Virus record (IMG/VR): IMGVR_UViG_3300032007_000014
Length of the DNA: 64,000 bases
Source of the DNA: a virus
Taxonomy: Duplodnaviria > Caudoviricetes
Reading direction: 5' to 3' (one strand)
The position numbers and the translations under genes were made by a program. This document shows positions 1-61,233 of this stretch, piece by piece (within the stretch, counting starts at the first letter, position 1; each line of letters opens with the position of its first letter). The notes below the pieces were generated by a model. The model did not search any database. It was not told the DNA's origin and saw only the letters and a list, made by a program, of their open reading frames with translations.

Positions 1-31
1 AGGGAACTATGCTATCATAGCATAGTTCCCT
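1..31. promoter_or_regulatory. Palindromic leader element (15-bp arms, CTAT-C-ATAG core) upstream of the tail-collar gene
   Basis: AGGGAACTATGCTAT-C-ATAGCATAGTTCCCT is a perfect inverted repeat ending 32 nt before the ATG at 64. It has the same core as the elements at 58403, 59180 and 60748. Confidence 0.55.
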
Positions 32-63: not shown

Positions 64-588
64 ATGGCATTCAATAAAAAATCTCTTCCTATTGATCTAC
101 CAACAGGAGGGAATGTACCTATCGGTACGATCATATTTTTCACCAACACAGCAACCATGCTCTCTAATTTGCAGATCAAGAATTGGCTTGTAGCAAATGG
201 CGCATCGATCAAGAAAGCAACATATCCAGATCTGTTCACCGTGATCGGATACATCTATGGAGGAAGTGGAGATAACTTCAATCTTCCTAAACTCACGGAT
301 GCAAGATACATCCGAGGTGGAACCTCTATCACGACTGCTATCGCAGCAAGTCTTCCGAATATCAAAGGACATGCTGGATGGTTCAATGTCTGGAGATCTT
401 GGAATACCGCTAATCTTGGTGGTGCATTCTACAACACCACTATTCGTGGTAGATCTGGAGAAGAACATGCTGGAAGTGACCACGAAAGAGATCTTCAGTT
501 TGACGCATCGAAATCCAACTCCATCTATGGAGGGACAACTGTTACTCCATTGAGTATCCAGTTGGTTCCTCTCATTCGAGCATGGTGA
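64..588 (+). CDS. Phage tail collar domain / tail fibre tip protein
   Basis: PIGTIIFF...WLVANGASIKKATYPDLFTVIG..YGG...FNLP matches the tail collar pattern; the C-terminal LPNIKG...FDASKSNSIYG motif is typical; SD AAGGAGG. Confidence 0.85.
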   Translation: MAFNKKSLPIDLPTGGNVPIGTIIFFTNTATMLSNLQIKNWLVANGASIKKATYPDLFTVIGYIYGGSGDNFNLPKLTDARYIRGGTSITTAIAASLPNIKGHAGWFNVWRSWNTANLGGAFYNTTIRGRSGEEHAGSDHERDLQFDASKSNSIYGGTTVTPLSIQLVPLIRAW

Positions 589-18399: not shown

Positions 18400-20355
18400 T
18401 CAGAAGTTGAAGAATCTGTCATTGAAACCATAACCACTTCCTTTGTCTCTGAGAACTGCTTTCGGATCACTGAACAAGCTGTCCATGCGTTCGAATGACA
18501 GTTTCGTAGACAGAGCCGCTTCTGAGATGACGGGACCAAGACCTCCAAAGTTGACGTACTCATCGCCACGTTCCATGACGGGGATGCGATAATCATCTTC
18601 ATTCGTGATCATGAAGCCTCGCAACATCATCTCTACATAGAATAGCTCGATGTTGGTCTTGTGATACAGGAGTTCAATGAAATCTCCGATCAACTTCGAC
18701 ACGGAATGATATTCCTTGATCTGCGTACTGAGGAAGTTCTCAACCGCAGACAAGAAGCTCACCATATCGTCATTTACCACACGATACCTCAGTACAGATT
18801 TGTTGAAGTCAAATCCTTCCAGAGGAATATCCACAGTTTCCGGAGTCACCACAAGTTTCTTATAGTTCTTCCGCATATACTGCAGCATGTAGTTGGACAG
18901 ATATGGCTTGGTGTCACCATCGATCAGATCCAGTACATCACAGACATTTCCATCTTTGACCAACTCAATCTTCTCCACAGCTGAGAATGTTTCACCAGCT
19001 GGGATAGTCTGACGAGTCAAGTCAGTGATAGGTCCGATTGCACTGAGACTGAGACGGATCGATGTCTTCCTCAGCTTTTCAGCCAATGTAACTTGCCACA
19101 TGATGGCGTCGCCATTCTTGATCAGATATCTCGACGCTGCAAGAGGAATGTTATATTCCTTCGTCAACGTCTTGATCAGATGCTTCGTAGACAACACCAA
19201 CTGAGTAACGGACGACACTGTCTTGGTTGCCGAATACACACCGATGTGGATTTCCGGTGGGATATAGACTTGCAACCTCTGATGCATATAACCAGCGCAA
19301 TGTTCACACACTCCGTCGGTATGTCTGCATCCGAATGGACTCCAGATATTCACAACCTTGTCAACGAAGAGATCAATGTTCTTCTTCGTCAACTGGATGC
19401 TATCATCCTCTGGATAGAGTCTCCGTTTTTCTTTCGCAAGCAGATCCTTGTGTTCTTCATCCACTCGGATGTATTTCCCAAGGAAATTCTTCTTATACTT
19501 CTCTTTCAAGAAGACAGGAATTGTCACCTGAGATCCACACCATCCTGGATAAAGTCTTGGAAGCTGAGATCCGACAAGTCGGCATTTTCTTGCAAAATAC
19601 TGAGCAGCTTCAATGACATCCGTATTGAAGAATGCGGCTTTTCTTGCAGACAAAGATTCCGTAGCGAAATCATACACATTCTCCAGTCCACCAAATGCAG
19701 ATGCACTGATGGGATAAGACATCATTTCATCCGTGATGTCGGAACGACAGCCATACATGGCGAACATCTGAGGAAGCTGATTTCGTTTGAGCAACTTCGT
19801 ACGCATGAACGGTTCCAGTACATTGTTTTCAAGAATGCCTTTGGATTGCAGCATTTCATGCAACTTGTTATTGACAACCTCCATCTTCTTCTCAGCGATT
19901 CTGGTACCGAGTCTCGGATCCAGTCGTTCCGATGTAATGTCATGCAAAGGTTTCTGGATGAACAATCTGCTCAAAGACAGAGCATCCAACATGACCTGAT
20001 ACTGTCTCGTATAGTTATACGAGAAGCTGAATGTCATATTCTTGCTCAACCAGATCTGTGCGAGAACTTCCAGATATGGAAGGTTCATATCCAGCACCAA
20101 CTCACTGTAGATTTTGTCACAGCATTCTGCAGTGGTACCGTCATCAAATCCTTCAATCCAGAAGATCTTGTTTTCATCGACAGGGATGTTGAAGTGCACA
20201 TATATCCGCCACAAGATCGCATTGTAGATAGCGATTCTCAATGGCATCAACACGTGATGTCCGTTATCCATGACGATGGTGATTTCACCGGATTCAGGAG
20301 CGAGTTCCTGAATCATTTGTACATTTGTGATCTCTTTGATCGTCAATGTCCTCAT
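18400..20355 (-). CDS. Non-virion RNA polymerase beta' C-terminal subunit (phiKZ gp74-like)
   Basis: ESLSARKA...AQYFARK (bridge-helix-like), SPFGCRHTDGVCEHCAG zinc site, VTQLVLSTKH (trigger-loop-like); synteny. Confidence 0.85.
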   Translation of the reverse strand: MRTLTIKEITNVQMIQELAPESGEITIVMDNGHHVLMPLRIAIYNAILWRIYVHFNIPVDENKIFWIEGFDDGTTAECCDKIYSELVLDMNLPYLEVLAQIWLSKNMTFSFSYNYTRQYQVMLDALSLSRLFIQKPLHDITSERLDPRLGTRIAEKKMEVVNNKLHEMLQSKGILENNVLEPFMRTKLLKRNQLPQMFAMYGCRSDITDEMMSYPISASAFGGLENVYDFATESLSARKAAFFNTDVIEAAQYFARKCRLVGSQLPRLYPGWCGSQVTIPVFLKEKYKKNFLGKYIRVDEEHKDLLAKEKRRLYPEDDSIQLTKKNIDLFVDKVVNIWSPFGCRHTDGVCEHCAGYMHQRLQVYIPPEIHIGVYSATKTVSSVTQLVLSTKHLIKTLTKEYNIPLAASRYLIKNGDAIMWQVTLAEKLRKTSIRLSLSAIGPITDLTRQTIPAGETFSAVEKIELVKDGNVCDVLDLIDGDTKPYLSNYMLQYMRKNYKKLVVTPETVDIPLEGFDFNKSVLRYRVVNDDMVSFLSAVENFLSTQIKEYHSVSKLIGDFIELLYHKTNIELFYVEMMLRGFMITNEDDYRIPVMERGDEYVNFGGLGPVISEAALSTKLSFERMDSLFSDPKAVLRDKGSGYGFNDRFFNF

Positions 20356-22472
20356 GCAGTCACTCCCTCCGTGGTTTCAAGTTCCGGTCTGACATCGAAT
20401 CCAATCGCACCCATGAGATGCGAAAAGATACTGACATTTTTGTTTTCGTCGATGGCTTGTTGTGTCGTAAATTCGAACAATGGTATTTGCGATGGATGAT
20501 CACACGTGAGAAGTTGGAACGCTTCTCTTTTCACCAGATCTGAAGATGCTGATGATGTGCACATCAATCTCGCAACGATCTCACCACCCAACGACATGTT
20601 CAGCATGCAGATCTCATCCTCACCGAATCTCTGAGGAGTTTGTCCGATAGAAGACTGAGATTTCACATACTTGTTGGTTGGTTTGATCGGAGTCTCGAAC
20701 TGAGACACATATGCCATTTCGACAGAGTGGATCATAGCTGATGGGATCTTACCGAGGAGCAGCAGATACTTCGATCCGATAAGACCTTTGGATACAGTTC
20801 TGATATGTTTCTCCACACCGTTCTTATCTTTGACGATATAGTTGATGGGAGATGTCTCAACTCCGTACTTTTCAGCCATGTTGATGATGAACTCTTCTGT
20901 GAAGTTCTTGGTGAATGCGGATACAAGATAAATGCCATCTTTCTTGCAGTCCTCGACAAATTCCCGTTTGTCGTCATCTGTGACGAGCATAGACTTGATC
21001 TTCATGGCATATGCTTCACGATAATCCGCGATATACTGCATGATATACTCGTAAGCTTCTCGCCAATCAGACATTCTCTGTACTTTCTTCACCACTTCAT
21101 CAGAACAACGATTGAAGAATTGCTCATAGAACTGAGACGGATTCATTCGGTTGATCACGGATGCCGGAGTTATGATGACATCAGCTCTGTTGCCAAAATC
21201 ATCAACCGGCATATACTTGTCTGGCCATATGGCACTAACAACGCCCTTGCCACCTTCTCTCCCAGTTAATTTTGAACCCAATGTGATCCCACGTTTGTAA
21301 CCATACGTGATAACCACAGAGATGAACTCAACTGGTTCGCGTTTGTCGATCAACTGAAGTCTTCTTCCGACATATTTTCTCGGAGCAGCCATGCCGATAC
21401 ACCGAGTCACGAGCGTGTTGAACTCGCTGCTCAGTTCATATCCTTCTTCTCTGCATTTCTCCCAGACATCAATGACAGCCTGCCAATAATAACCATGTTG
21501 TTCACGGTATTTCATGAACTGACTGTACACAGATTCTTTTCCTCTGAGATTTCGCAACGCATCGAAGTTGACATAAACATCCACGTCGATCACAGTTGCA
21601 CCAGGTGGTGCTTTGTGTTCCTTATCGTGGAGATACTCAATGTTCTGCAGAGCTTCATTCGTCATGTCAGAAACGAATGTCGTCTTGTTGCGTCCACGAA
21701 GTGCAACCAGAACTCCATCATCTCTGACTGTCTCACCGATGTCTGGAAATGCCTTATAGAAAGTGTCATCTCCATACAGGTTCAGCGGGACATCATCTTC
21801 ACCGATGTTCAACTTCAACTGACAGATCGCTGTGTTCTGTCCAGCATTCGCCAGACTTTCACTGATGATAAAAGCATCCTCAGTGACACCCCATTCTGAC
21901 ATGAACACCACATTGGCGTTGACGCCCATGCAATAATACTCTCCCTTGTGATTGGGAGAGGTCATGAATTTCATGTCTTTGGGAATGAAGTTGTTGACTG
22001 TCAAGTTGTGCGTATTACACGGTGTGTTCATATATCCGAACCCATCGTGCAGCATGGTATAATTGCTTATATCCACATAATGCACTTTGTTGTCGTCCTG
22101 TCCAATATAGACGACAGTATGGGTTGGAATTGTCGTGCTGTCCGCGTTCCATTGCGTCATTTTGAATTTCGGAATGATCGCAATGATGATTGCGTCCTGA
22201 TCTCTGCTGGCATTGTCGAACTCATACTTTCCGAATATGGGTTCGTAACCAGTTGAGATCCTTGGTGGTTCACATCCATCGATAACGAGTGCCTGAGCCA
22301 AATTGCCAGACATCATCATCGTACGCTGAGAACTGCAGTACTGGATATAAGGACCAAGTAATCCTTGCAATCCAAGCAACTCCTGTCTCATCGTCAGATC
22401 TGAACGCATGATTGTGTTGATTTCTTTCATTACACTCTTTCCTGTTGTTAACGGGTTAAAACCGATTGTCAC
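20352..22472 (-). CDS. Non-virion RNA polymerase beta C-terminal subunit (phiKZ gp71-73-like)
   Basis: SSQRTMMMSGNLAQA, EDAFIISES, GSKLTGREGGKGVVS, TPASVINRMNPSQ and QRFGEDE match beta conserved regions; start may be ATG 22430. Confidence 0.92.
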   Translation of the reverse strand: MTIGFNPLTTGKSVMKEINTIMRSDLTMRQELLGLQGLLGPYIQYCSSQRTMMMSGNLAQALVIDGCEPPRISTGYEPIFGKYEFDNASRDQDAIIIAIIPKFKMTQWNADSTTIPTHTVVYIGQDDNKVHYVDISNYTMLHDGFGYMNTPCNTHNLTVNNFIPKDMKFMTSPNHKGEYYCMGVNANVVFMSEWGVTEDAFIISESLANAGQNTAICQLKLNIGEDDVPLNLYGDDTFYKAFPDIGETVRDDGVLVALRGRNKTTFVSDMTNEALQNIEYLHDKEHKAPPGATVIDVDVYVNFDALRNLRGKESVYSQFMKYREQHGYYWQAVIDVWEKCREEGYELSSEFNTLVTRCIGMAAPRKYVGRRLQLIDKREPVEFISVVITYGYKRGITLGSKLTGREGGKGVVSAIWPDKYMPVDDFGNRADVIITPASVINRMNPSQFYEQFFNRCSDEVVKKVQRMSDWREAYEYIMQYIADYREAYAMKIKSMLVTDDDKREFVEDCKKDGIYLVSAFTKNFTEEFIINMAEKYGVETSPINYIVKDKNGVEKHIRTVSKGLIGSKYLLLLGKIPSAMIHSVEMAYVSQFETPIKPTNKYVKSQSSIGQTPQRFGEDEICMLNMSLGGEIVARLMCTSSASSDLVKREAFQLLTCDHPSQIPLFEFTTQQAIDENKNVSIFSHLMGAIGFDVRPELETTEGVTA

Positions 22473-22568: not shown

Positions 22569-22928
22569 ATGGCTGCAGATAGCGAATCAGTAAAACTTTC
22601 TGATCGTTGCGAAGCACGCAAAGGTGACATGTCCGTGGATAATGAACCTTGGAAAAGATTCATTATGGATCACAAGAGATACCTTCTTGGCAAATGCTCA
22701 AAGATGGTATTAGATGTCCACGAAATGTTAAAATATAAATACAGACCTTACGACTTCGCAACGGAAAAGATGGAGATACCGATTGAGTCAACATGGATCA
22801 TGTTGTACATCAACGATATCCCAGGAATCATGGACTTCAATGAATCACTGACATCCATTTTCTCTTTTGATTCAACCATCATCAGCGATCTTTATCGGAT
22901 GTTTGAGTCAACTCAGGAAGAGAATTAA
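22569..22928 (+). CDS. Putative baseplate wedge protein (LysM / T4 gp53-like)
   Basis: YRPYDF.......TWIMLYINDI....DF pattern; ATG 22569 has SD AAGGA, with TATG upstream. Confidence 0.5.
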   Translation: MAADSESVKLSDRCEARKGDMSVDNEPWKRFIMDHKRYLLGKCSKMVLDVHEMLKYKYRPYDFATEKMEIPIESTWIMLYINDIPGIMDFNESLTSIFSFDSTIISDLYRMFESTQEEN

Positions 22929-36242: not shown

Positions 36243-36731
36243 TTATTCATCCTTCTCTGTTGTAGTGGTTATGGTGTCATACAATCTCTCGATCTCAACA
36301 AGATGCGGACGTATTTCATTGAAGAGTTCTTTGAGATTGTCCATGTCGAAGTTGCTCGTGCGAACATAGATTGCATCCGACATATTGATCGGTGCAATAG
36401 ATATGTCGCAGATTCTGTATTTGTCATGGACACCCATCTTAACCTTGACACCTTTCACAACATCTTCACGATGGATAGGTTTCTCAACGATAAGATAGGT
36501 TCCATTCTGGAATGTCTGGACGATGTCTCCAGTATCGGGTTCTTTACAAGGATTGTCTCCAAGTAATGCGTTGATCTTCCCGATGTCGAACATCTCGTCA
36601 ACCAGACACACGTTCGTTGCGGCTCCTGCCAGACTGAGCCACCGAAGCATAGCAGGGATATCCTTTTCAGGATATCGCTGTTGTAAATGTTCGAATGTTT
36701 TGTCTCTTGATAATAGTACACGATGTGACAT
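36243..36731 (-). CDS. Hypothetical protein
   Basis: 162-aa ORF abutting the downstream gene. Confidence 0.65.
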   Translation of the reverse strand: MSHRVLLSRDKTFEHLQQRYPEKDIPAMLRWLSLAGAATNVCLVDEMFDIGKINALLGDNPCKEPDTGDIVQTFQNGTYLIVEKPIHREDVVKGVKVKMGVHDKYRICDISIAPINMSDAIYVRTSNFDMDNLKELFNEIRPHLVEIERLYDTITTTTEKDE

Positions 36732-55696: not shown

Positions 55697-58270
55697 TTAA
55701 CCAACGCAGATCATGTACCATGAAGAACCATCGGATTCTAGTGGTATGTAAGTCACGTTGCTGTTTGTAAGGGTTGCAGCGTAACTGTACGAACCCCACA
55801 CGATGTTTACAGTTCCTGCACCGTGAACTTCGACATTCACTCGACATCCATCCATGACGGATGTTGGTGCCGGAAGTGTAACGGTGATAGTTCCAGATGC
55901 GTTCGTGCACTTGATGGTCGGTTCACAGTATTTGAGATATCCTTGTATGGTAGCCGCAGTGACATTTGAAGCTGTCTGGAACGTACGTTTTGTTTTCGCA
56001 AAACGAGTCCACGCGTACCATGTGGTTGATCCGTATCTTGTACGATACCACATGTTGTTGTAGCTATCCTTGCTGATCAGGATCTGCACGAGAACTGTGT
56101 CATTCTGTCCGCCTGCTGCAGTTGCTGATCCAGAAATTGTTGATTCTGTTATAACAATGACAGTAGACCGCTGAGCAACACCACCACCATCCTGAATCGG
56201 ACCATGGGTGCATGATTGTACATCATAGATACCAGTGGTGGTGAGCGTGTCCAAATCAACGGCATTGTTTCCATTGTTTCTTGCAGCACCGTACAAAAGA
56301 CCTTTTGCCTGCAATGCAGATGCCAACTTATTCAATGCATTGATTGATGGAGCACGATTGATTATTCCAGTCATGCCGACATAATTGGAGCCATTTGAAG
56401 CAGTGAGTTGTATAGCGTGTTCTCCATTTGTGTCGGTATAGTAGAAGACTTCTCCATAATAACTGGAAATATTCGAACTCGTGAGAGTCACGTAGCTGTG
56501 GTAACTCTGAATGAGTTCTCGTTTGAGCATATACTGCTTATGGACATCATTGCTTCCATATGCATTTTGCGAAATATGTCCATTTGCATAGACGTACAGA
56601 TCGTAAACTGCTTTTGCAGAAGCAATCTTGCCATTTGCATTGGAACCAGAAGCAGGTAATGTTGTGGTTGCAGCATCGTATGAAGTGCTGTATGTGTTAA
56701 CCACCTGACTCCATGGGATATACTGACGATGCGCTGCATCGTGAGTGTTAGCAGTCCATGTTTTTGAAGTGGAACTTCCGGTGTGATCAGTCAGTCTTGT
56801 ATTGACTGCATTAAAGTTCGGCAATGTGTAGCTGTTGTACAGATCGTACACTGCTTTCGCTGATGCAACTTCACCGTAATACGTGGTGCGAATATTCGCA
56901 TCACTCGGTGTAGACGGTTCACTCTTCGCAACGTCGTACGTGTTGACAACTTTGCTCCACTGCACGTACTGCGGGTGTGCGAAGTCACTTCTGTTTGCAG
57001 TCCATGTCTGTTTCGTTGCACTTCCAGTGTGATCCGATACGAGATCAATGATGAAGTTGTCACGTTGATCAACGTATATTTCCAGATCAACAACTGCTTT
57101 GGTAGAAGCAGGCGTGTCCTTCATTTCCTTCAGGTGAACAGAAGTACTCCACCTGCCACCTTGACTGTCAAGTGCTGATTTGTCGTGCCAACTGGCGTTC
57201 AGTTCATCATCCCTGAGATACATTGCGTGTTCATCAGGAGTGAATGTTACTGTAACACTCGATGCTACTGGTCCAGCAAAGGTGACGACATCACCAGCAT
57301 TGACTGCACGGATCTTCGCGCCATTGTTGACAGAATTGACACGTAGTGCACCACTAAGATAATTCCCATTCGCATCCTTGGCGTAGATGTATCCAGCTTG
57401 AGGAACAACATAGGAACCATTTGATCTGATGACACTTGCAACATTGGTCTGATCAGCAAGTCTGTGCTCTGCGAGTTGCAGTTGCAATGCACTGATCACT
57501 CCATCGTAATTCTGGAGCGTATCCATCTTCCATTCATAGATGGGATTTGCTGTGGTTGATCCTTCAGCATCCACGATCTCGAACAGATAGATCATTCCAC
57601 CAATGTAGTTGCCATTGATGTCAATGTCAGGTGCTGTCTGTTGTTCATAGGTGTCTGCACCAGATTTGAACAAGACTTTACCATGACCTCCCCATTGTTC
57701 CAGTCCGATCTTCGTTCCAAGACTGTATTGACTTGGATTCGGCAACTCCAGTTGGTAGTCACCGAATGACTCATACATGGTGTTGGGAAGAGCATATTTG
57801 TAATTGGCATCTGAGTTGGATGATACGATATTGCGATCGATGATCTTTCTGATCATGTTACCACCAAGGGTGTTCCAAGGTGACCATGTGATCGTACCAC
57901 CAGCTGTTGCTGAATATCCAACACGAGTGTAAGGTGTTGGATCGTTGACATTGTCTGGGTACACGATCTGTCTGATACGAGGTATTGCAGAAGATTCCTG
58001 ATTGACCGCATGGTATACAGACATGACGTGGATGTAACCAGTTGGATCCGATATCGGAGGTCCATTCACGATCGTGCTATCAACACGACGAAAACATGCT
58101 TCTGTGATGCTGTTGAGATCTGTGTTACTCGCAAGTGGTTCACCTTTGAACAGGTTACCCATGGCATACATGGTGACGCCAGTCTTTTGCTTCGTAAGAT
58201 TATCAGCATTCATCACATGCACATCATCACTCATGTTGGTCACGAGAGGTGATTTCATGGATTGATTCAT
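55697..58270 (-). CDS. Tail fibre protein
   Basis: 857 aa; HPQY/HRQY/HKQY and ASAKAVYDLY repeats; DLDTLTTTGIY...W..W knob motif. Confidence 0.75.
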   Translation of the reverse strand: MNQSMKSPLVTNMSDDVHVMNADNLTKQKTGVTMYAMGNLFKGEPLASNTDLNSITEACFRRVDSTIVNGPPISDPTGYIHVMSVYHAVNQESSAIPRIRQIVYPDNVNDPTPYTRVGYSATAGGTITWSPWNTLGGNMIRKIIDRNIVSSNSDANYKYALPNTMYESFGDYQLELPNPSQYSLGTKIGLEQWGGHGKVLFKSGADTYEQQTAPDIDINGNYIGGMIYLFEIVDAEGSTTANPIYEWKMDTLQNYDGVISALQLQLAEHRLADQTNVASVIRSNGSYVVPQAGYIYAKDANGNYLSGALRVNSVNNGAKIRAVNAGDVVTFAGPVASSVTVTFTPDEHAMYLRDDELNASWHDKSALDSQGGRWSTSVHLKEMKDTPASTKAVVDLEIYVDQRDNFIIDLVSDHTGSATKQTWTANRSDFAHPQYVQWSKVVNTYDVAKSEPSTPSDANIRTTYYGEVASAKAVYDLYNSYTLPNFNAVNTRLTDHTGSSTSKTWTANTHDAAHRQYIPWSQVVNTYSTSYDAATTTLPASGSNANGKIASAKAVYDLYVYANGHISQNAYGSNDVHKQYMLKRELIQSYHSYVTLTSSNISSYYGEVFYYTDTNGEHAIQLTASNGSNYVGMTGIINRAPSINALNKLASALQAKGLLYGAARNNGNNAVDLDTLTTTGIYDVQSCTHGPIQDGGGVAQRSTVIVITESTISGSATAAGGQNDTVLVQILISKDSYNNMWYRTRYGSTTWYAWTRFAKTKRTFQTASNVTAATIQGYLKYCEPTIKCTNASGTITVTLPAPTSVMDGCRVNVEVHGAGTVNIVWGSYSYAATLTNSNVTYIPLESDGSSWYMICVG

Positions 58271-58350
58271 TACTGGTTCTCCTTACATTATAAGGGTATT
58301 ATAGTGGTTTAAACTAGTCATAGATATGGTCGGAAGTGCCTTGTTGAAGG

Positions 58351-58383
58351 GAGAACAGAGTACCAAAGAGGTACTCTGTTCTC
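58351..58383. terminator. Hairpin preceding palindromic leader A
   Basis: GAGAACAGAGTACC-AAAGA-GGTACTCTGTTCTC. Confidence 0.55.
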
Positions 58384-58402
58384 ATGAGAATTTGGAACTT
58401 TA

Positions 58403-58430
58403 TCAACATAACTATTCATAGTTATGTTGA
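58403..58430. promoter_or_regulatory. Palindromic leader element A
   Basis: TCAACATAACTAT-TC-ATAGTTATGTTGA, 37 nt before ATG 58468. Confidence 0.65.
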
Positions 58431-58467
58431 AAATTCACAACCAAGAATAACAAGGAGATATCACAAC

Positions 58468-59124
58468 ATGGCATTCCCAACTAAAGTAATTCCATTCTCG
58501 GAAGCATGTGTCACCTGGTTAAATCAGACATATGCACCAAAAATACATGAACATGATCAGTATATGCTGAGAACTGAGAACGCTGGAGGACACGAACCAG
58601 ATTGGGATCATACACTTGTGTTAGAAGGTCCAACTACTTGGAATGCTTATCACAAGACAAATAAAGTATATAAAATCAATGCACCTGGATTCATATTTGT
58701 GACCTTCACAACAAGTCAATTGGATAATGATGACTATCTTGTTTTACTTGCAAGCAAGGAAGATTATCTATATGCTGATGGTACTTATACAGCATGTCAA
58801 AATCATGCTGTAGAATATATGTCCACCACTAGTAATGGTTACGGTCACTCAGCTCAATTTGTACATATCACACCAGGTACATCAACTTACATGAGAATCG
58901 CAGTTGATTCTCCTCCAAATGGAAGACACACTCTATTGTTCATTCCAGATAAAGGATTGACAACACTGCAGTTGAGTGGATGTATTACTTCTATAGATAC
59001 ATCCACATATGACGGAAATAGGGTATTCAGTCGTTTTGATTATAATCCTAGATCAACGTTAAATCAAATCAAAACAAATCTTTTATCGATATTTGCGGGT
59101 GATTGGAGAACAAATTTTGCATGA
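58468..59124 (+). CDS. Fibre-tip/accessory virion protein, paralogue of 59685..60710
   Basis: MAFPTKVIPFSEAC..WLNQTYA..H.H..Y, YKINAPG, PGTSTYMR and IFAGDW are shared with the paralogue; SD AAGGAG. Confidence 0.7.
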   Translation: MAFPTKVIPFSEACVTWLNQTYAPKIHEHDQYMLRTENAGGHEPDWDHTLVLEGPTTWNAYHKTNKVYKINAPGFIFVTFTTSQLDNDDYLVLLASKEDYLYADGTYTACQNHAVEYMSTTSNGYGHSAQFVHITPGTSTYMRIAVDSPPNGRHTLLFIPDKGLTTLQLSGCITSIDTSTYDGNRVFSRFDYNPRSTLNQIKTNLLSIFAGDWRTNFA

Positions 59125-59179
59125 CTTGTGATAACAACCTCATGGGAGTCGTGCGCTCCCATGAGGTAAAATTCACCAA

Positions 59180-59206
59180 TCAACATTGCTATGATAGCAA
59201 TGTTGA
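59180..59206. promoter_or_regulatory. Palindromic leader element C
   Basis: TCAACATTGCTAT-G-ATAGCAATGTTGA, 23 nt before ATG 59230. Confidence 0.65.
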
Positions 59207-59229
59207 ACATAATTGAAAGGGTTGTTATC

Positions 59230-59655
59230 ATGGCAACGTCAGTATCTATGTTGGAAACAAAGTTGAGTCGAGCAACTACAAGATGGATCCTGAACAAATT
59301 TACTTACAATGGAAGCAATGATAATGGATGTTTCAGAATATGTCTTGATGGCTATACTGAACAATGGGGAACTGGAACATCTAACAATGTCACATTCCCT
59401 AAACCATTTCGAGATAATGAACATGTGCATGTTGATGTAACCAGTATATCAAATGACAATTTGATATTTTCAGTACATCATGTTACGAGTACTGGATTCC
59501 AAGTTGATGCAATTAAGATACTTAATTCAATTCCAGTCTCTCTTGCCAATGTTGAAAGTTTTGCATTCATGTGGAAAGCAATTGGATATACGTCAATAGA
59601 CAATCCTGATGGAAATGTATTAGAATCACAAGAAGATACGAGAGGTCCACAATAG
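59230..59655 (+). CDS. Stand-alone tail-fibre C-terminal (lectin-like) domain protein
   Basis: DGYTEQWG....VTFPKPF...STGF...WKAIGY is a widespread fibre-tip domain pattern. Confidence 0.75.
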   Translation: MATSVSMLETKLSRATTRWILNKFTYNGSNDNGCFRICLDGYTEQWGTGTSNNVTFPKPFRDNEHVHVDVTSISNDNLIFSVHHVTSTGFQVDAIKILNSIPVSLANVESFAFMWKAIGYTSIDNPDGNVLESQEDTRGPQ

Positions 59656-59671
59656 GACCTCTCGTATCTTC
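59632..59671. terminator. Hairpin between convergent genes, overlapping the TAG stop of 59230..59655
   Basis: GAAGATACGAGAGGTCC-ACAATA-GGACCTCTCGTATCTTC. Confidence 0.65.
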
Positions 59672-59684
59672 AATCTATCTCTAA

Positions 59685-60710
59685 TCAATATGCTACATTT
59701 GCAGATGCAGTTGGTTGAACAAAAGTTGTCGTCAAGTTGTATGACGCACTTATACGAGCTGAGTTCACTATCCAAGCTATACCATCAGGAGGATCAGCTT
59801 GACCAGTTCCTCTTGGGTCACTCCAATAATAAACAGAGTGATCGCTGTACAAACATATTCTCCAAATTCCATCATACTTGCACATAATGTAATTGGTTCC
59901 ATTGTAGAACCACATTCGGTTGTCTCCAGTTGCTACTGGATCCATCATGTGCAATCGATAACCATTTGACCAATTTCCTGATGTCAAGTATGTTATCTTT
60001 GGTCGAAGTATGTTAGTTTCTTTCAACGTCGTGCCATTGAAATTGTCAGTCCAATCACCTCCAAATATACTACTTCCAAGAGATAAGAGTGATCCAAGTC
60101 CACTGCTGTTGTGAGATGAAATCTGATTCTCACCTCTAGCAACTCTGGTGAAATACGAAGCTTTCGGAATACTTGTTGACAATCCTTTCATCGGGACGAA
60201 CATTAGTTTCATATATGTTGATGGAGTTGACGCATCACATACTCTGAGATATGTTGATGTTCCTGGTAGGATAGGGAATGCGCAATTTGTATACCATTCT
60301 CCATCTACAGTACCATACAGTTTACATCTCTTGTTTGCATAGTGAGGTCTCGTGTAACTTCCAAAATTACTAGCTTGTTGTTGATGACGTACCAAGTATC
60401 CTGGGTGACTTGCAACCAGATACCACCAGTCTATCTCGTCAGCGTATCCATCATAGGTACTTTCAGTCTATAGATATCCAGGAACATTTATCTTGTAAAT
60501 AGTTCCTGGATTGGCCGCCCAGCTTCCATCAGTTGTTTCCATGAACACCATCCTCGTGAAATCAGGCATGCTTGCTGATGGATCAAACAGACCAGTGATG
60601 TCACTCGCTTTCAAGTATTCCGAATGACTGTGATTCTTCAATGCATATGTCTGGTTTAGCCAGTTCTTGCATGCTTGTGAAAGAGGAATAACTTTTGTTG
60701 GAAAAGACAT
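59685..60710 (-). pseudogene. Fibre-tip paralogue interrupted by a single in-frame TAG at 60468-60470 (nonsense allele or read-through)
   Basis: ORFs 60468..60710 and 59685..60395 are in the same frame: ...YKINVPGYL*TESTYDGYADEIDWWYLVAS... Homology with 58468..59124 continues across the stop. Confidence 0.75.
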
Positions 60711-60747
60711 GATGTGTCAACTCCTGTTTTCATAGTTTTCTGTAAAT

Positions 60748-60775
60748 TCAACATTACTATGAATAGTAATGTTGA
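60748..60775. promoter_or_regulatory. Palindromic leader element B
   Basis: TCAACATTACTAT-GA-ATAGTAATGTTGA, 37 nt before the minus-strand ATG at 60710. Confidence 0.65.
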
Positions 60776-60843
60776 CACATCTGTAAAATAAAATCAAGGA
60801 TCTACCTTGCCTAATAAGCAAGGTAGATCCTGTAGAATATGTT

Positions 60844-61233
60844 ATGTACAGGCCAAATTCAAGGCATGTACAAGAGTACATCAGATCATCCAACAATTCA
60901 ATTTCAATATCAAGGAGTAATCAAATGGAACGACTCAACTGTTTGTTTCCAGGTGTGGACTTTGTCCAGTACATCGAACCTGATCTTTCAGAAACCACTG
61001 TTGATGGTGGTACCACGATCATTTACGATCGTTTCACAGAAGGTCTTGGTCTCAATCCAGAAACAGGTGCAATGGATGTGGAAGTACCTGTGTACATCCG
61101 CAAGACAACCATCATTGTTGAAGGAAACGTCACAACCATTCGGAAACAAAAGACGTACGCAAAATGGAGTGAGCGTGAAACAGCCACATACGTGGGTGTG
61201 AACAACGAACTGAAAAAATATTCTGTTCGTTAA
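60844..61233 (+). CDS. Hypothetical protein
   Basis: 129-aa ORF; start uncertain. Confidence 0.55.
   Translation: MYRPNSRHVQEYIRSSNNSISISRSNQMERLNCLFPGVDFVQYIEPDLSETTVDGGTTIIYDRFTEGLGLNPETGAMDVEVPVYIRKTTIIVEGNVTTIRKQKTYAKWSERETATYVGVNNELKKYSVR

What the first reader, a model, noticed from the sequence alone, without database searches (positions are those of the whole stretch)
58351..60831. Cassette-like fibre-tip genes, each led by hairpin + covarying TCAACAT..CTAT/ATAG..ATGTTGA palindrome
Seen in sequence: three genes (58468+, 59230+, 60710-) share one layout. A strong hairpin is followed 12-21 nt later by a 27-28-bp palindrome with 13-bp arms, then SD and ATG. The arms differ between copies (TAAC/GTTA, TTGC/GCAA, TTAC/GTAA) but always compensatorily, and two copies lie exactly 37 nt from the ATG. 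A fourth palindrome with the same CTAT-N-ATAG core precedes the tail-collar gene at 1-31, 58 kb away. Inference: a dedicated cis element controls accessory receptor-binding genes, as an RNA or cruciform hairpin, an operator, or a recombination site. Sites A and B have a 2-bp asymmetric core in inverted orientation (TC vs GA), the geometry of serine-invertase sites, but no recombinase is seen in the window.
Basis: partly seen in the sequence, partly recalled or inferred. Interest (0 to 1): 0.7.

Follow-up and report, generated by a model that had tools for sequence, protein, structure and literature searches.

The report
Mirror-symmetric phage promoters with flippable cores
The three palindromes are real and belong to a family of twelve perfectly symmetric sites in a giant cattle-gut phage that look like start signals for the phage's own RNA polymerase, placed before swappable tail-fibre-like and head-cargo genes; only their one or two middle bases give them a direction, and these bases are found turned around in some related strains.

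Summary
Observation confirmed. Perfect palindromes lie at 58403-58430 (A), 59180-59206 (B) and 60748-60775 (C), with none expected by chance. Each sits between a strong hairpin and a start codon.

The 238-kb genome is a phiKZ-like jumbo phage. It holds 12 such palindromes, including window 1-31. One strand of each reads TCAACAWTRC-TATG-A, with the G at the dyad. This combines the phiKZ late-promoter TATG (G = start) with the AR9 AACA-N6-T-purine spacing.

Best reading (0.55): back-to-back promoters of the phage's non-virion RNA polymerase, heading promoter-gene-terminator cassettes.

- All 173 arm pairs are Watson-Crick.
- Cores are inverted between strains at five family sites, including a GA/TC core with identical flanks. 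The 7-nt loop of the hairpin beside C is inverted too.
- The genome has no recombinase, so replication template switching is the likely cause of both perfect arms and flips.
- A (9 assemblies) and C (15) never flip. Their TATG points away from the fibre-like gene, into the hairpin.

The element is not specific to fibre genes. The invertase-site and RNA-hairpin readings are not supported.

This scan found the same family earlier on other DNA of this genome (e1-5496567). Transcript start mapping is still needed.

The parts
1..31 (.). Palindrome of the same family (16-bp arms in the genome copy), in the divergent gap between a 214-aa gene (-, upstream of the window) and the tail-collar gene.
64..588 (+). 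Tail-collar domain gene (174 aa)
   Evidence: Pfam Collar E 3.5e-12; PHROG tail collar fibre
55697..58270 (-). 857-aa gene divergent from gene A. It has its own late-promoter-like CCAT-N3-TATG on the - strand at 58319-58329.
58351..58383 (.). Hairpin, 14-bp stem and 5-nt loop, on the far side of palindrome A from gene A; no T tract on either strand
58403..58430 (.). Palindrome A. The dyad TATG is on the - strand (G at 58417). Outward-facing TTATG in both arms (+ strand G at 58426).
   Evidence: identical in 9 assemblies
58468..59124 (+). Gene A, 218 aa, MAFPTKVIP-family paralogue (fibre-tip-like)
59137..59167 (.). Hairpin after gene A, 12 nt before palindrome B
59180..59206 (.). Palindrome B. 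The dyad TATG is on the + strand (G at 59193), 37 nt before the ATG of gene B.
59180..59679 (+). B cassette (palindrome + gene B + hairpin), present or absent between strains and flanked by an AATCAA repeat
59230..59655 (+). Gene B, 141 aa, weak tail-fibre gp53-like C-terminal match
   Evidence: Pfam PF21882 E 2e-4, below cut-off; PDB 4mtm E 0.23
59632..59671 (.). Hairpin (17-bp stem) between the convergent ends of genes B and C
59685..60710 (-). Gene C, 341 codons, MAFPTKVIP-family paralogue, broken here by TGG to TAG at codon 81 (60468-60470) and intact in other strains
60748..60775 (.). Palindrome C. The dyad TATG is on the + strand (G at 60761), pointing away from gene C.
   Evidence: identical in 15 assemblies
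60797..60831 (.). Hairpin (14-bp stem) with a T tract on the - strand. Its 7-nt loop (60811-60817) is inverted in about half of the strains.
60925..61233 (+). 102-aa gene divergent from gene C, conserved in all strains
58567..60642 (.). Hypervariable block (bodies of genes A and C, with or without B), exchanged between strains. It is bounded by the conserved promoter plus N-terminal-codon modules, which are inverted repeats of each other (about 74% identity over 135 nt).
20355..22472 (-). RNA polymerase beta-like subunit of the phage (context for the promoter reading)
   Evidence: Pfam RNA_pol_Rpb2_6 E 3.7e-16

Best explanation
Each palindrome is two copies of one roughly 14-nt promoter for the phage's own non-virion multisubunit RNA polymerase. 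The copies are set back to back so that both share the start position at the dyad. The arms are identical on both strands, so only the 1-2-nt core is asymmetric. The strand with G at the core reads the full consensus TCAACAWTRC-TATG-A (G = predicted +1). The other strand has a pyrimidine at that position.

The element heads promoter-gene-terminator cassettes for accessory virion proteins. A hairpin always lies on the side away from the served gene. I take it to stop transcripts that leave the symmetric promoter backwards, or that read in from upstream.

In this window, B fires into gene B. A and C have the consensus start pointing away from their fibre-like genes, through the hairpin, towards the 857-aa and 102-aa neighbours.

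Perfect arms and core flips are most simply produced by intramolecular template switching at the palindrome during replication, with no recombinase.

Shown here: the anatomy, the consensus, the conservation, the flips, the cassette borders, the absence of recombinases, and the presence of a phage RNA polymerase.

Inferred: polymerase binding, the start at the dyad G, the insulator role of the hairpin, and the flip mechanism.
For: 1. Consensus. All 12 family members carry TATG at the dyad on exactly one strand, with AAC at -11 to -9 in 9 of 12 and AACA at -11 to -8 in 8 of 12. This matches the phiKZ late promoter TATG with G as the start (PMC4666361; PMC12809450) and the AR9 late consensus AACA-N6-T-A/G (PMC5312081; PMC9209446).
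2. Phage type. The phage is phiKZ-like: RNA polymerase beta-like gene, and PhiKZ_MCP and phiKZ_IP genes in syntenic strain contigs.
3. Position. Elements always lie 23-114 nt upstream of a start codon and never between convergent genes. Two of them lie only 7 nt from the preceding terminator hairpin, so transcription must begin within or after the palindrome.
4. A decayed relative. At genome 44841 a non-palindromic relative keeps only the upstream arm plus TATG, in sense orientation 41 nt before a phiKZ_IP-like gene, and it is conserved in three strains.
5. Conservation. A and C are 100% conserved in 9 and 15 assemblies while the flanks carry SNPs and the gene bodies are replaced.
6. Direction matters. 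The 2-nt cores are strongly biased: 30 of 30 assembly-by-site observations at four sites show the same orientation. The 1-nt cores are mixed.
7. Flips without a recombinase.
   - GA versus TC at the 22891 element, with 160 nt of flank identical.
   - G versus C at 36287, 40789, 43831 and window position 16.
   - A 7-nt hairpin loop inverted at 60811-60817.
   - No Resolvase, Phage_integrase or Y1_Tnp in the genome.
   - Template switching is known to homogenise inverted-repeat arms and invert their spacers (PMC8604942, PMC8794818).
Against: No transcript 5' ends were available, so promoter activity and direction rest on sequence alone.

At A, C and two more of the five MAFPTKVIP paralogues, the dyad TATG is antisense to the gene that the layout appears to serve, and this holds in every strain. 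Either these genes use another start or the direction rule is incomplete. Candidate other starts are the arm TTATG at 58426 for A and a conserved CTATGAA 21 nt before the ATG of C.

The palindromes score poorly against this phage's commoner late-promoter-like motif (CCAT-N2-3-TATG-CAATTTG), so they would form a separate promoter class.

A promoter does not need 13-17 perfectly mirrored base pairs.

A G:C pair at the dyad whose orientation is free would also suit a symmetric DNA-binding dimer.
Confidence: 0.55

Rival explanations
1. Symmetric operator: a dimeric phage regulator (late activator or repressor) binds the inner half-sites RCTAT on double-stranded DNA and controls the cassette genes. 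The true promoters are nearby TATG sites.
For: The dyad symmetry is perfect. The core is conserved only as a G:C pair (or TC/GA) whose orientation varies between strains and does not track gene direction in the 1-nt class. Sense TATGs exist beside or inside some elements.
Against: The half-site matches two published polymerase promoter consensus sequences at the exact spacing. Half-site spacing differs by 1 bp between the two classes. The 13-17-bp perfect arms exceed what a dimer contacts. The 2-nt cores show a strong orientation bias, which a symmetric binder would not impose. No candidate regulator was identified.
Confidence: 0.15
2. RNA element: the palindrome is transcribed as a 12-bp stem-loop in the 5' UTR of the cassette mRNAs and acts as a stabiliser, an RNase III site or a protein-binding hairpin.
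For: The hairpins are stable when folded as single strands (-9 to -14 kcal/mol as DNA, z about -7). The arms change in a compensatory way. The distance to the ATG is constant (37 nt) at A and C. For gene A, a + strand TATG at 58328 upstream of the hairpin could give such a UTR.
Against: There is no conserved promoter between the terminator hairpin and the palindrome, and the gap is only 7 nt at two family members. There are no G-T pairs among 173 arm pairs. The loop sequence flips between strains. Rfam gives no match. Template switching explains the covariation without selection.
Confidence: 0.08
3. Crossover sites of a serine invertase (hix/gix-like) that inverts the 2.3-kb segment between A and C to switch fibre genes.
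For: The geometry is 13-bp arms around a 2-bp asymmetric core, with A and C in inverted orientation. The cores do invert in nature.
Against: The genome, about 90% complete, has no Resolvase or integrase domain. The segment has the same orientation in all 8 further assemblies that span A to C. B and six other members have a 1-nt core. The observed flips change only the core.
Confidence: 0.03
4. Functionless or selfish palindromes that persist only because template switching keeps them perfect.
For: Loop inversion also occurs at an ordinary hairpin. The B unit is flanked by a 6-nt direct repeat.
Against: They always lie upstream of starts and never elsewhere. They share a consensus and are invariant across strains whose flanks differ by 3-18%.
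Confidence: 0.05

Closest known systems
phiKZ late promoters of the non-virion RNA polymerase (e.g. P119L; PMC4666361, PMC12809450)
   Same: TATG with G at the predicted start. The phage is phiKZ-like with its own multisubunit polymerase. The elements lie before virion genes. A terminator hairpin close after a start, which gives short RNAs in phiKZ (PMC10914365), resembles the dyad-to-hairpin spacing of about 35 nt at A and C.
   Different: The phiKZ motif is only 4 nt and is not palindromic. Here a 13-nt upstream consensus is mirrored exactly downstream, and the start base lies on the dyad.
AR9 late promoters, AACA-N6-T-A/G (PMC5312081, PMC9209446)
   Same: AACA at -11 to -8, T at -1 and a purine at +1, at identical spacing, in A, B, C and five other members.
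   Different: AR9 needs uracil DNA and reads the template strand, and its promoters are not palindromes. Whether this phage has modified DNA was not tested.
Spacer inversion and arm homogenisation by replication template switching at inverted repeats (PMC8604942, PMC8794818, PMC7202029); small hairpin-loop inversions of plastid genomes (PMC12371153)
   Same: The arms are perfectly matched, arm changes come in pairs, and only the spacer is inverted between close relatives, with no recombinase.
   Different: In those cases the events are treated as mutational noise. Here the inverted spacer is the one asymmetric, direction-giving part of a putative promoter.
Invertible tail-fibre switches of phages Mu and P1 (Gin/Cin with gix/cix sites) and the Hin/hix promoter flip (from my own knowledge)
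   Same: Alternative fibre genes lie beside short palindromic sites with a 2-bp asymmetric core.
   Different: No invertase is present, no segment is inverted, and the sites lie upstream of the genes rather than inside them.

Membership tests
phiKZ-type late promoter | TATG on the non-template strand with G as the start | tested here: met
   TATG lies at the dyad of all 12 elements, on one strand only. The start itself was not mapped.
phiKZ-type late promoter | Phage encodes a non-virion multisubunit RNA polymerase | tested here: met
   An Rpb2-domain beta-like gene lies at 20355-22472. phiKZ MCP and IP genes are present in syntenic contigs. Virion versus non-virion assignment was not tested.
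phiKZ-type late promoter | Sense orientation upstream of the gene it drives | tested here: inconclusive
   B is in sense. A and C are antisense to the fibre-like gene but in sense to the divergent neighbours, 147 and 164 nt away.
phiKZ-type late promoter | Transcription by the phage polymerase from this site | not testable with these tools
   This needs 5'-end mapping or in vitro transcription.
AR9-type late promoter | AACA at -11 to -8, six bases, T at -1, A or G at +1 | tested here: met
   Met in 8 of 12 elements, including A, B and C, on the G strand.
AR9-type late promoter | Uracil-containing DNA and template-strand recognition | not testable with these tools
   Base modification cannot be read from the sequence.
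Serine-invertase crossover site (hix/gix) | A resolvase/invertase gene in the element or genome | tested here: not met
   PF00239 gave no match in the genome (90% complete), while the control genomes were positive.
Serine-invertase crossover site (hix/gix) | The same 2-bp core in all partner sites | tested here: not met
   B and six other members have a 1-nt core.
Serine-invertase crossover site (hix/gix) | The intervening segment is found in both orientations | tested here: not met
   The orientation is the same in all 8 further assemblies that span A to C.
Intrinsic terminator | G+C-rich stem followed by a T tract | tested here: not met
   The palindromes are A+T-rich with no T tract, and the scan lists only the neighbouring hairpins.
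Known RNA family (Rfam) | Score above the gathering threshold | tested here: not met
   The only match is a chance mir-451 hit at 21.6 bits against a threshold of 66.5.
Phage tail-fibre or receptor-binding proteins (genes A, B, C) | Recognisable fibre domain or fold | tested here: inconclusive
   The A-family profile hits the upper fibre of phage 80-alpha, 6v8i, at E 0.0015 over 27 residues. The model has pLDDT 58 and gives weak TNF/C1q-like jelly-roll hits. B matches gp53-like_C below the Pfam cut-off.

The most novel reading that the evidence does not exclude
The palindromes are recombinase-free flip-flop promoters. The palindrome itself, through hairpin-templated replication errors, inverts its 1-2-nt core at high frequency, and this redirects the phage polymerase either into an accessory virion gene or into a terminator hairpin. 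A phage population would then carry many combinations of fibre tips and head cargo as a form of bet-hedging. In most genomes the five MAFPTKVIP fibre-tip genes are parked in the off orientation. In this strain one of them (genome 22086-22859) is turned on.
Probability: 0.25. Interest if true: 0.85.

Novelty: new variant of a known kind. Interest (0 to 1): 0.62.

Why it matters
What gives jumbo-phage non-virion polymerases their specificity beyond the 4-nt TATG is an open question (stated in PMC4666361 and PMC12809450). This family offers a 14-nt natural consensus that joins the phiKZ and AR9 rules, plus 12 natural paired templates that are identical except for the start base.

If the core flips do switch direction, this would be a phase-variation device that needs no enzyme of its own. 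It would act on receptor-binding and injected proteins, so it bears on the host range of rumen phages.

The case also gives a caution. Perfect covariation in a DNA palindrome can come from template switching rather than from selection for a fold.

Tried and rejected
- Nucleotide search of the phage collection found nothing.
- IMG/VR scans for the motif and for the protein family found nothing.
- PHROGs and Pfam left A, C and the 857-, 819- and 102-aa proteins unnamed.
- A two-component model of TATG sites first collapsed. When repaired it recovered a different late-like motif, under which the palindromes score poorly, so they are not ordinary members of that class.
- Contig ends as proxies for transcript starts were rejected. 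Several assemblies simply break at the palindromes (L009, L010, L024, L036).
- Sigma-70-type promoters are not enriched in the region: 18 found against 12 +/- 3.7 expected.
- Stop-codon recoding as the reason for the TAG in gene C was rejected. It is a single TGG to TAG change absent from other strains, and the phage has no suppressor tRNA.
- The integron attC and MITE readings were considered and dropped. There is no integrase, and the position relative to start codons is fixed.
Full report
**What is in the sequence.** None is expected by chance. Each has 13-bp arms. On the + strand the centres are TC (A), G (B) and GA (C).

- The hairpins stand 19, 12 and 21 nt away.
- A and C lie 37 nt from their ATGs and B lies 23 nt from its ATG.
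- The palindrome at 1-31 precedes a tail-collar gene.
- The TC/GA pair is A and C, not A and B.
- Gene C has an in-frame TAG.

**Context.** The window is part of a 238,219-bp single-contig virus genome of 44% G+C. It carries an RNA polymerase beta-like gene. Syntenic strain contigs carry phiKZ major-capsid and internal-head-protein genes. It is therefore a phiKZ-like jumbo phage with its own polymerases. Related contigs come from bovine and rumen metagenomes.

The TCAACAT type occurs five times in the genome. A scan for perfect palindromes found 94, against 1-5 in random sequence. Most are G+C-rich terminator-type hairpins.

Twelve share the core CTAT-(G, C, GA or TC)-ATAG with 13-17-bp arms. 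Every CTAT-N1-2-ATAG in the genome is one of these twelve. Written on the strand that carries G at the centre, they give the consensus TCAACAWTRC-TATG-A:

- T, A, T and C at -1 to -4 are invariant.
- C at -9 occurs in 11 of 12.
- A at -10 occurs in 10 of 12 and A at -11 in 11 of 12.
- AACA at -11 to -8 occurs in 8 of 12, including A, B and C.
- All 173 arm pairs are Watson-Crick, with no G-T pair.

**Comparison with known promoters.** phiKZ late promoters are TATG with G as the start. [quoted passage not shown] AR9 late promoters are AACA-N6-T-A/G with the last base as the start (PMC5312081; PMC9209446).

The half-palindrome satisfies both rules at the exact spacing. Each element therefore reads as two such promoters back to back, sharing the start position. 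Only the strand with G has a purine at +1.

A different late-like motif, CCAT-N2-3-TATG-CAATTTG, is commoner before other genes of this phage. The palindromes would therefore be a separate class.

**Position and layout.** All twelve lie 23-114 nt upstream of a start codon. Six are in divergent gaps and none lies between convergent genes.

Nine have a G+C-rich hairpin 7-41 nt away, always on the side away from the nearest served gene. At genome 40789 and 43831 the gap is only 7 nt. That leaves no room for a promoter upstream of the palindrome, which argues against an mRNA hairpin.

A non-palindromic relative at genome 44841 keeps only the upstream arm and TATG. It lies in sense orientation, 41 nt before a phiKZ_IP-like gene, and is unchanged in three strains. 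This is the best internal evidence that arm plus TATG is a promoter and that the sense orientation is the active one.

**Gene class.** All five 2-nt-core elements precede paralogues that begin MAFPTKVIP. Evidence that these are fibre proteins is weak:

- The family profile matches a fibre protein of phage 80-alpha at E 0.0015.
- A low-confidence model (pLDDT 58) gives TNF/C1q-like jelly-roll hits.
- B matches a gp53-like fibre C-terminus below threshold.

Other family members precede a phiKZ internal head protein, a SUKH-domain protein and tail-collar genes. The element therefore marks accessory virion genes in general, not fibres alone.

**Cassettes.** Against the JGI strain, identity is 97% up to 58566, which is 33 codons into gene A. 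It resumes at 98.7% from 60643, which is 22 codons into gene C. The gene bodies between these points are unrelated. Strains carry A alleles of 32-86% identity and C alleles of 341, 350 or 354 residues behind identical palindromes.

The B unit, 59180-59679, is missing from six of the assemblies that span the locus. It starts at the first base of its palindrome, ends 8 nt after its hairpin and is flanked by AATCAA. It co-occurs with a different A allele (L004) and with an intact C (L020).

**Core orientation in strains.**

| Site | Core state observed |
|---|---|
| A | same in 9 of 9 assemblies |
| C | same in 15 of 15 assemblies |
| genome 45451 | same in 3 of 3 |
| genome 46386 | same in 3 of 3 |
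| genome 22891 (same arms as C) | GA in sense here and in one near-identical assembly; TC in two others, with 160 nt of flank and the protein identical |
| genome 36287, 40789 | G versus C between strains |
| genome 43831 | G versus C between strains |

The 22891 change is a true dinucleotide inversion, not a point mutation.

An ordinary hairpin beside C has its 7-nt loop inverted in about half of the strains. The genome has no resolvase, integrase or Y1 transposase. Replication template switching is known both to homogenise inverted-repeat arms and to invert their spacers (PMC8604942, PMC8794818, PMC7202029). It therefore accounts for the covariation as well as the flips.

**The unresolved point.** At A, C, 45451 and 46386 the consensus start points away from the fibre-like gene and into the hairpin, and this holds in every strain. 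B, 22891 (in this strain) and 43831 (here and in one of two other strains) point into their genes. The strong bias of the 2-nt class (30 of 30 at four sites) against the mixed 1-nt class says that orientation is under selection there. A purely symmetric operator does not predict this. Two readings remain:

- The fibre-tip genes are normally off from the dyad promoter and are switched on by rare flips.
- They use other starts. Candidates are the arm TTATG at 58426 for gene A, and a CTATGAA 21 nt before the ATG of gene C that is conserved across strains.

The dyad starts of A and C would also give leaders of 147 and 164 nt, each with a hairpin at about +35, towards the 857-aa and 102-aa genes. 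This resembles the promoter-plus-5'-UTR-terminator units that give short RNAs in phiKZ (PMC10914365). The 857-aa gene also has its own CCAT-N3-TATG.

**Relation to earlier scan notes.** Note e1-5496567 described nine members of this family in the neighbouring region as mirror-image late promoters with flipping centres. I re-derived the TATG dyad, the consensus and the flips independently. I add the following:

- The three members here.
- The fixed orientation of A and C.
- The contrast between 2-nt and 1-nt cores.
- The dinucleotide inversion at 22891.
- The loop inversion of an ordinary hairpin.
- The cassette borders.
- The point that template switching weakens covariation as evidence of a fold.

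**Verdict.** The element is real, strongly conserved and functional. It is most likely a palindromic variant of jumbo-phage non-virion polymerase promoters. Whether core flipping is a regulatory switch remains open.

Noticed in passing
window 60468-60470: Gene C is broken by a single TGG to TAG change at codon 81. This occurs only in this genome and its near-identical ENA twin. 13 other assemblies have an intact gene of 341-354 aa. The phage has 7 tRNAs and none is a suppressor.
   Followed up: yes
window 60811-60817: The 7-nt loop of the hairpin beside palindrome C is CTAATAA in some strains and its reverse complement TTATTAG in others, with identical stems. This is a hairpin-loop inversion polymorphism.
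   Followed up: yes
One of them is the centre base of the 1-31 palindrome (C versus G). The other (T versus C) lies inside the 819-aa gene.
   Followed up: partly
window 58319-58328: Back-to-back TATGs (CATAGATATG) lie in the gap between the 857-aa gene and gene A. The - strand one has a CCAT-N3 upstream element like this phage's commoner late-type motif. The + strand one could start a long leader for gene A.
   Followed up: no
whole genome (e.g. genome 11336, 137609, 170004, 145476, 179541, 237317): A recurrent non-palindromic motif, roughly GCCATCTTATGCAATTTG, lies 25-50 nt before many genes. It is probably the main late or middle promoter class. TATATTA(C) occurs 34 times (both strands counted), 22 of them intergenic, and resembles the phiKZ early promoter core.
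   Followed up: partly
whole genome: CTAG-containing words are about six-fold enriched in intergenic DNA, meaning they are avoided in coding sequence. Runs of seven or more G or C are almost all intergenic (9 of 10 occurrences, both strands counted), for example paired poly-G/poly-C repeats near genome 4449-4554 and 34357-34564.
   Followed up: no
genome 41898-42277 (L002:5898-6277): A roughly 380-nt ORF-poor stretch with several G+C-rich hairpins lies directly downstream of the dyad TATG of the 41867 palindrome. It may be a non-coding RNA.
   Followed up: no
window 59177-59182 and about 59672-59679: The 500-bp B cassette is bracketed by the direct repeat AATCAA. This may be microhomology used for insertion or deletion, or it may be chance.
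   Followed up: partly
   Followed up: no
L025-L029, L033 (strain contigs): In other strains one to three extra tail-collar genes lie between the 1-31-type palindrome and the collar gene. The collar locus is therefore also a variable cassette array.
   Followed up: no
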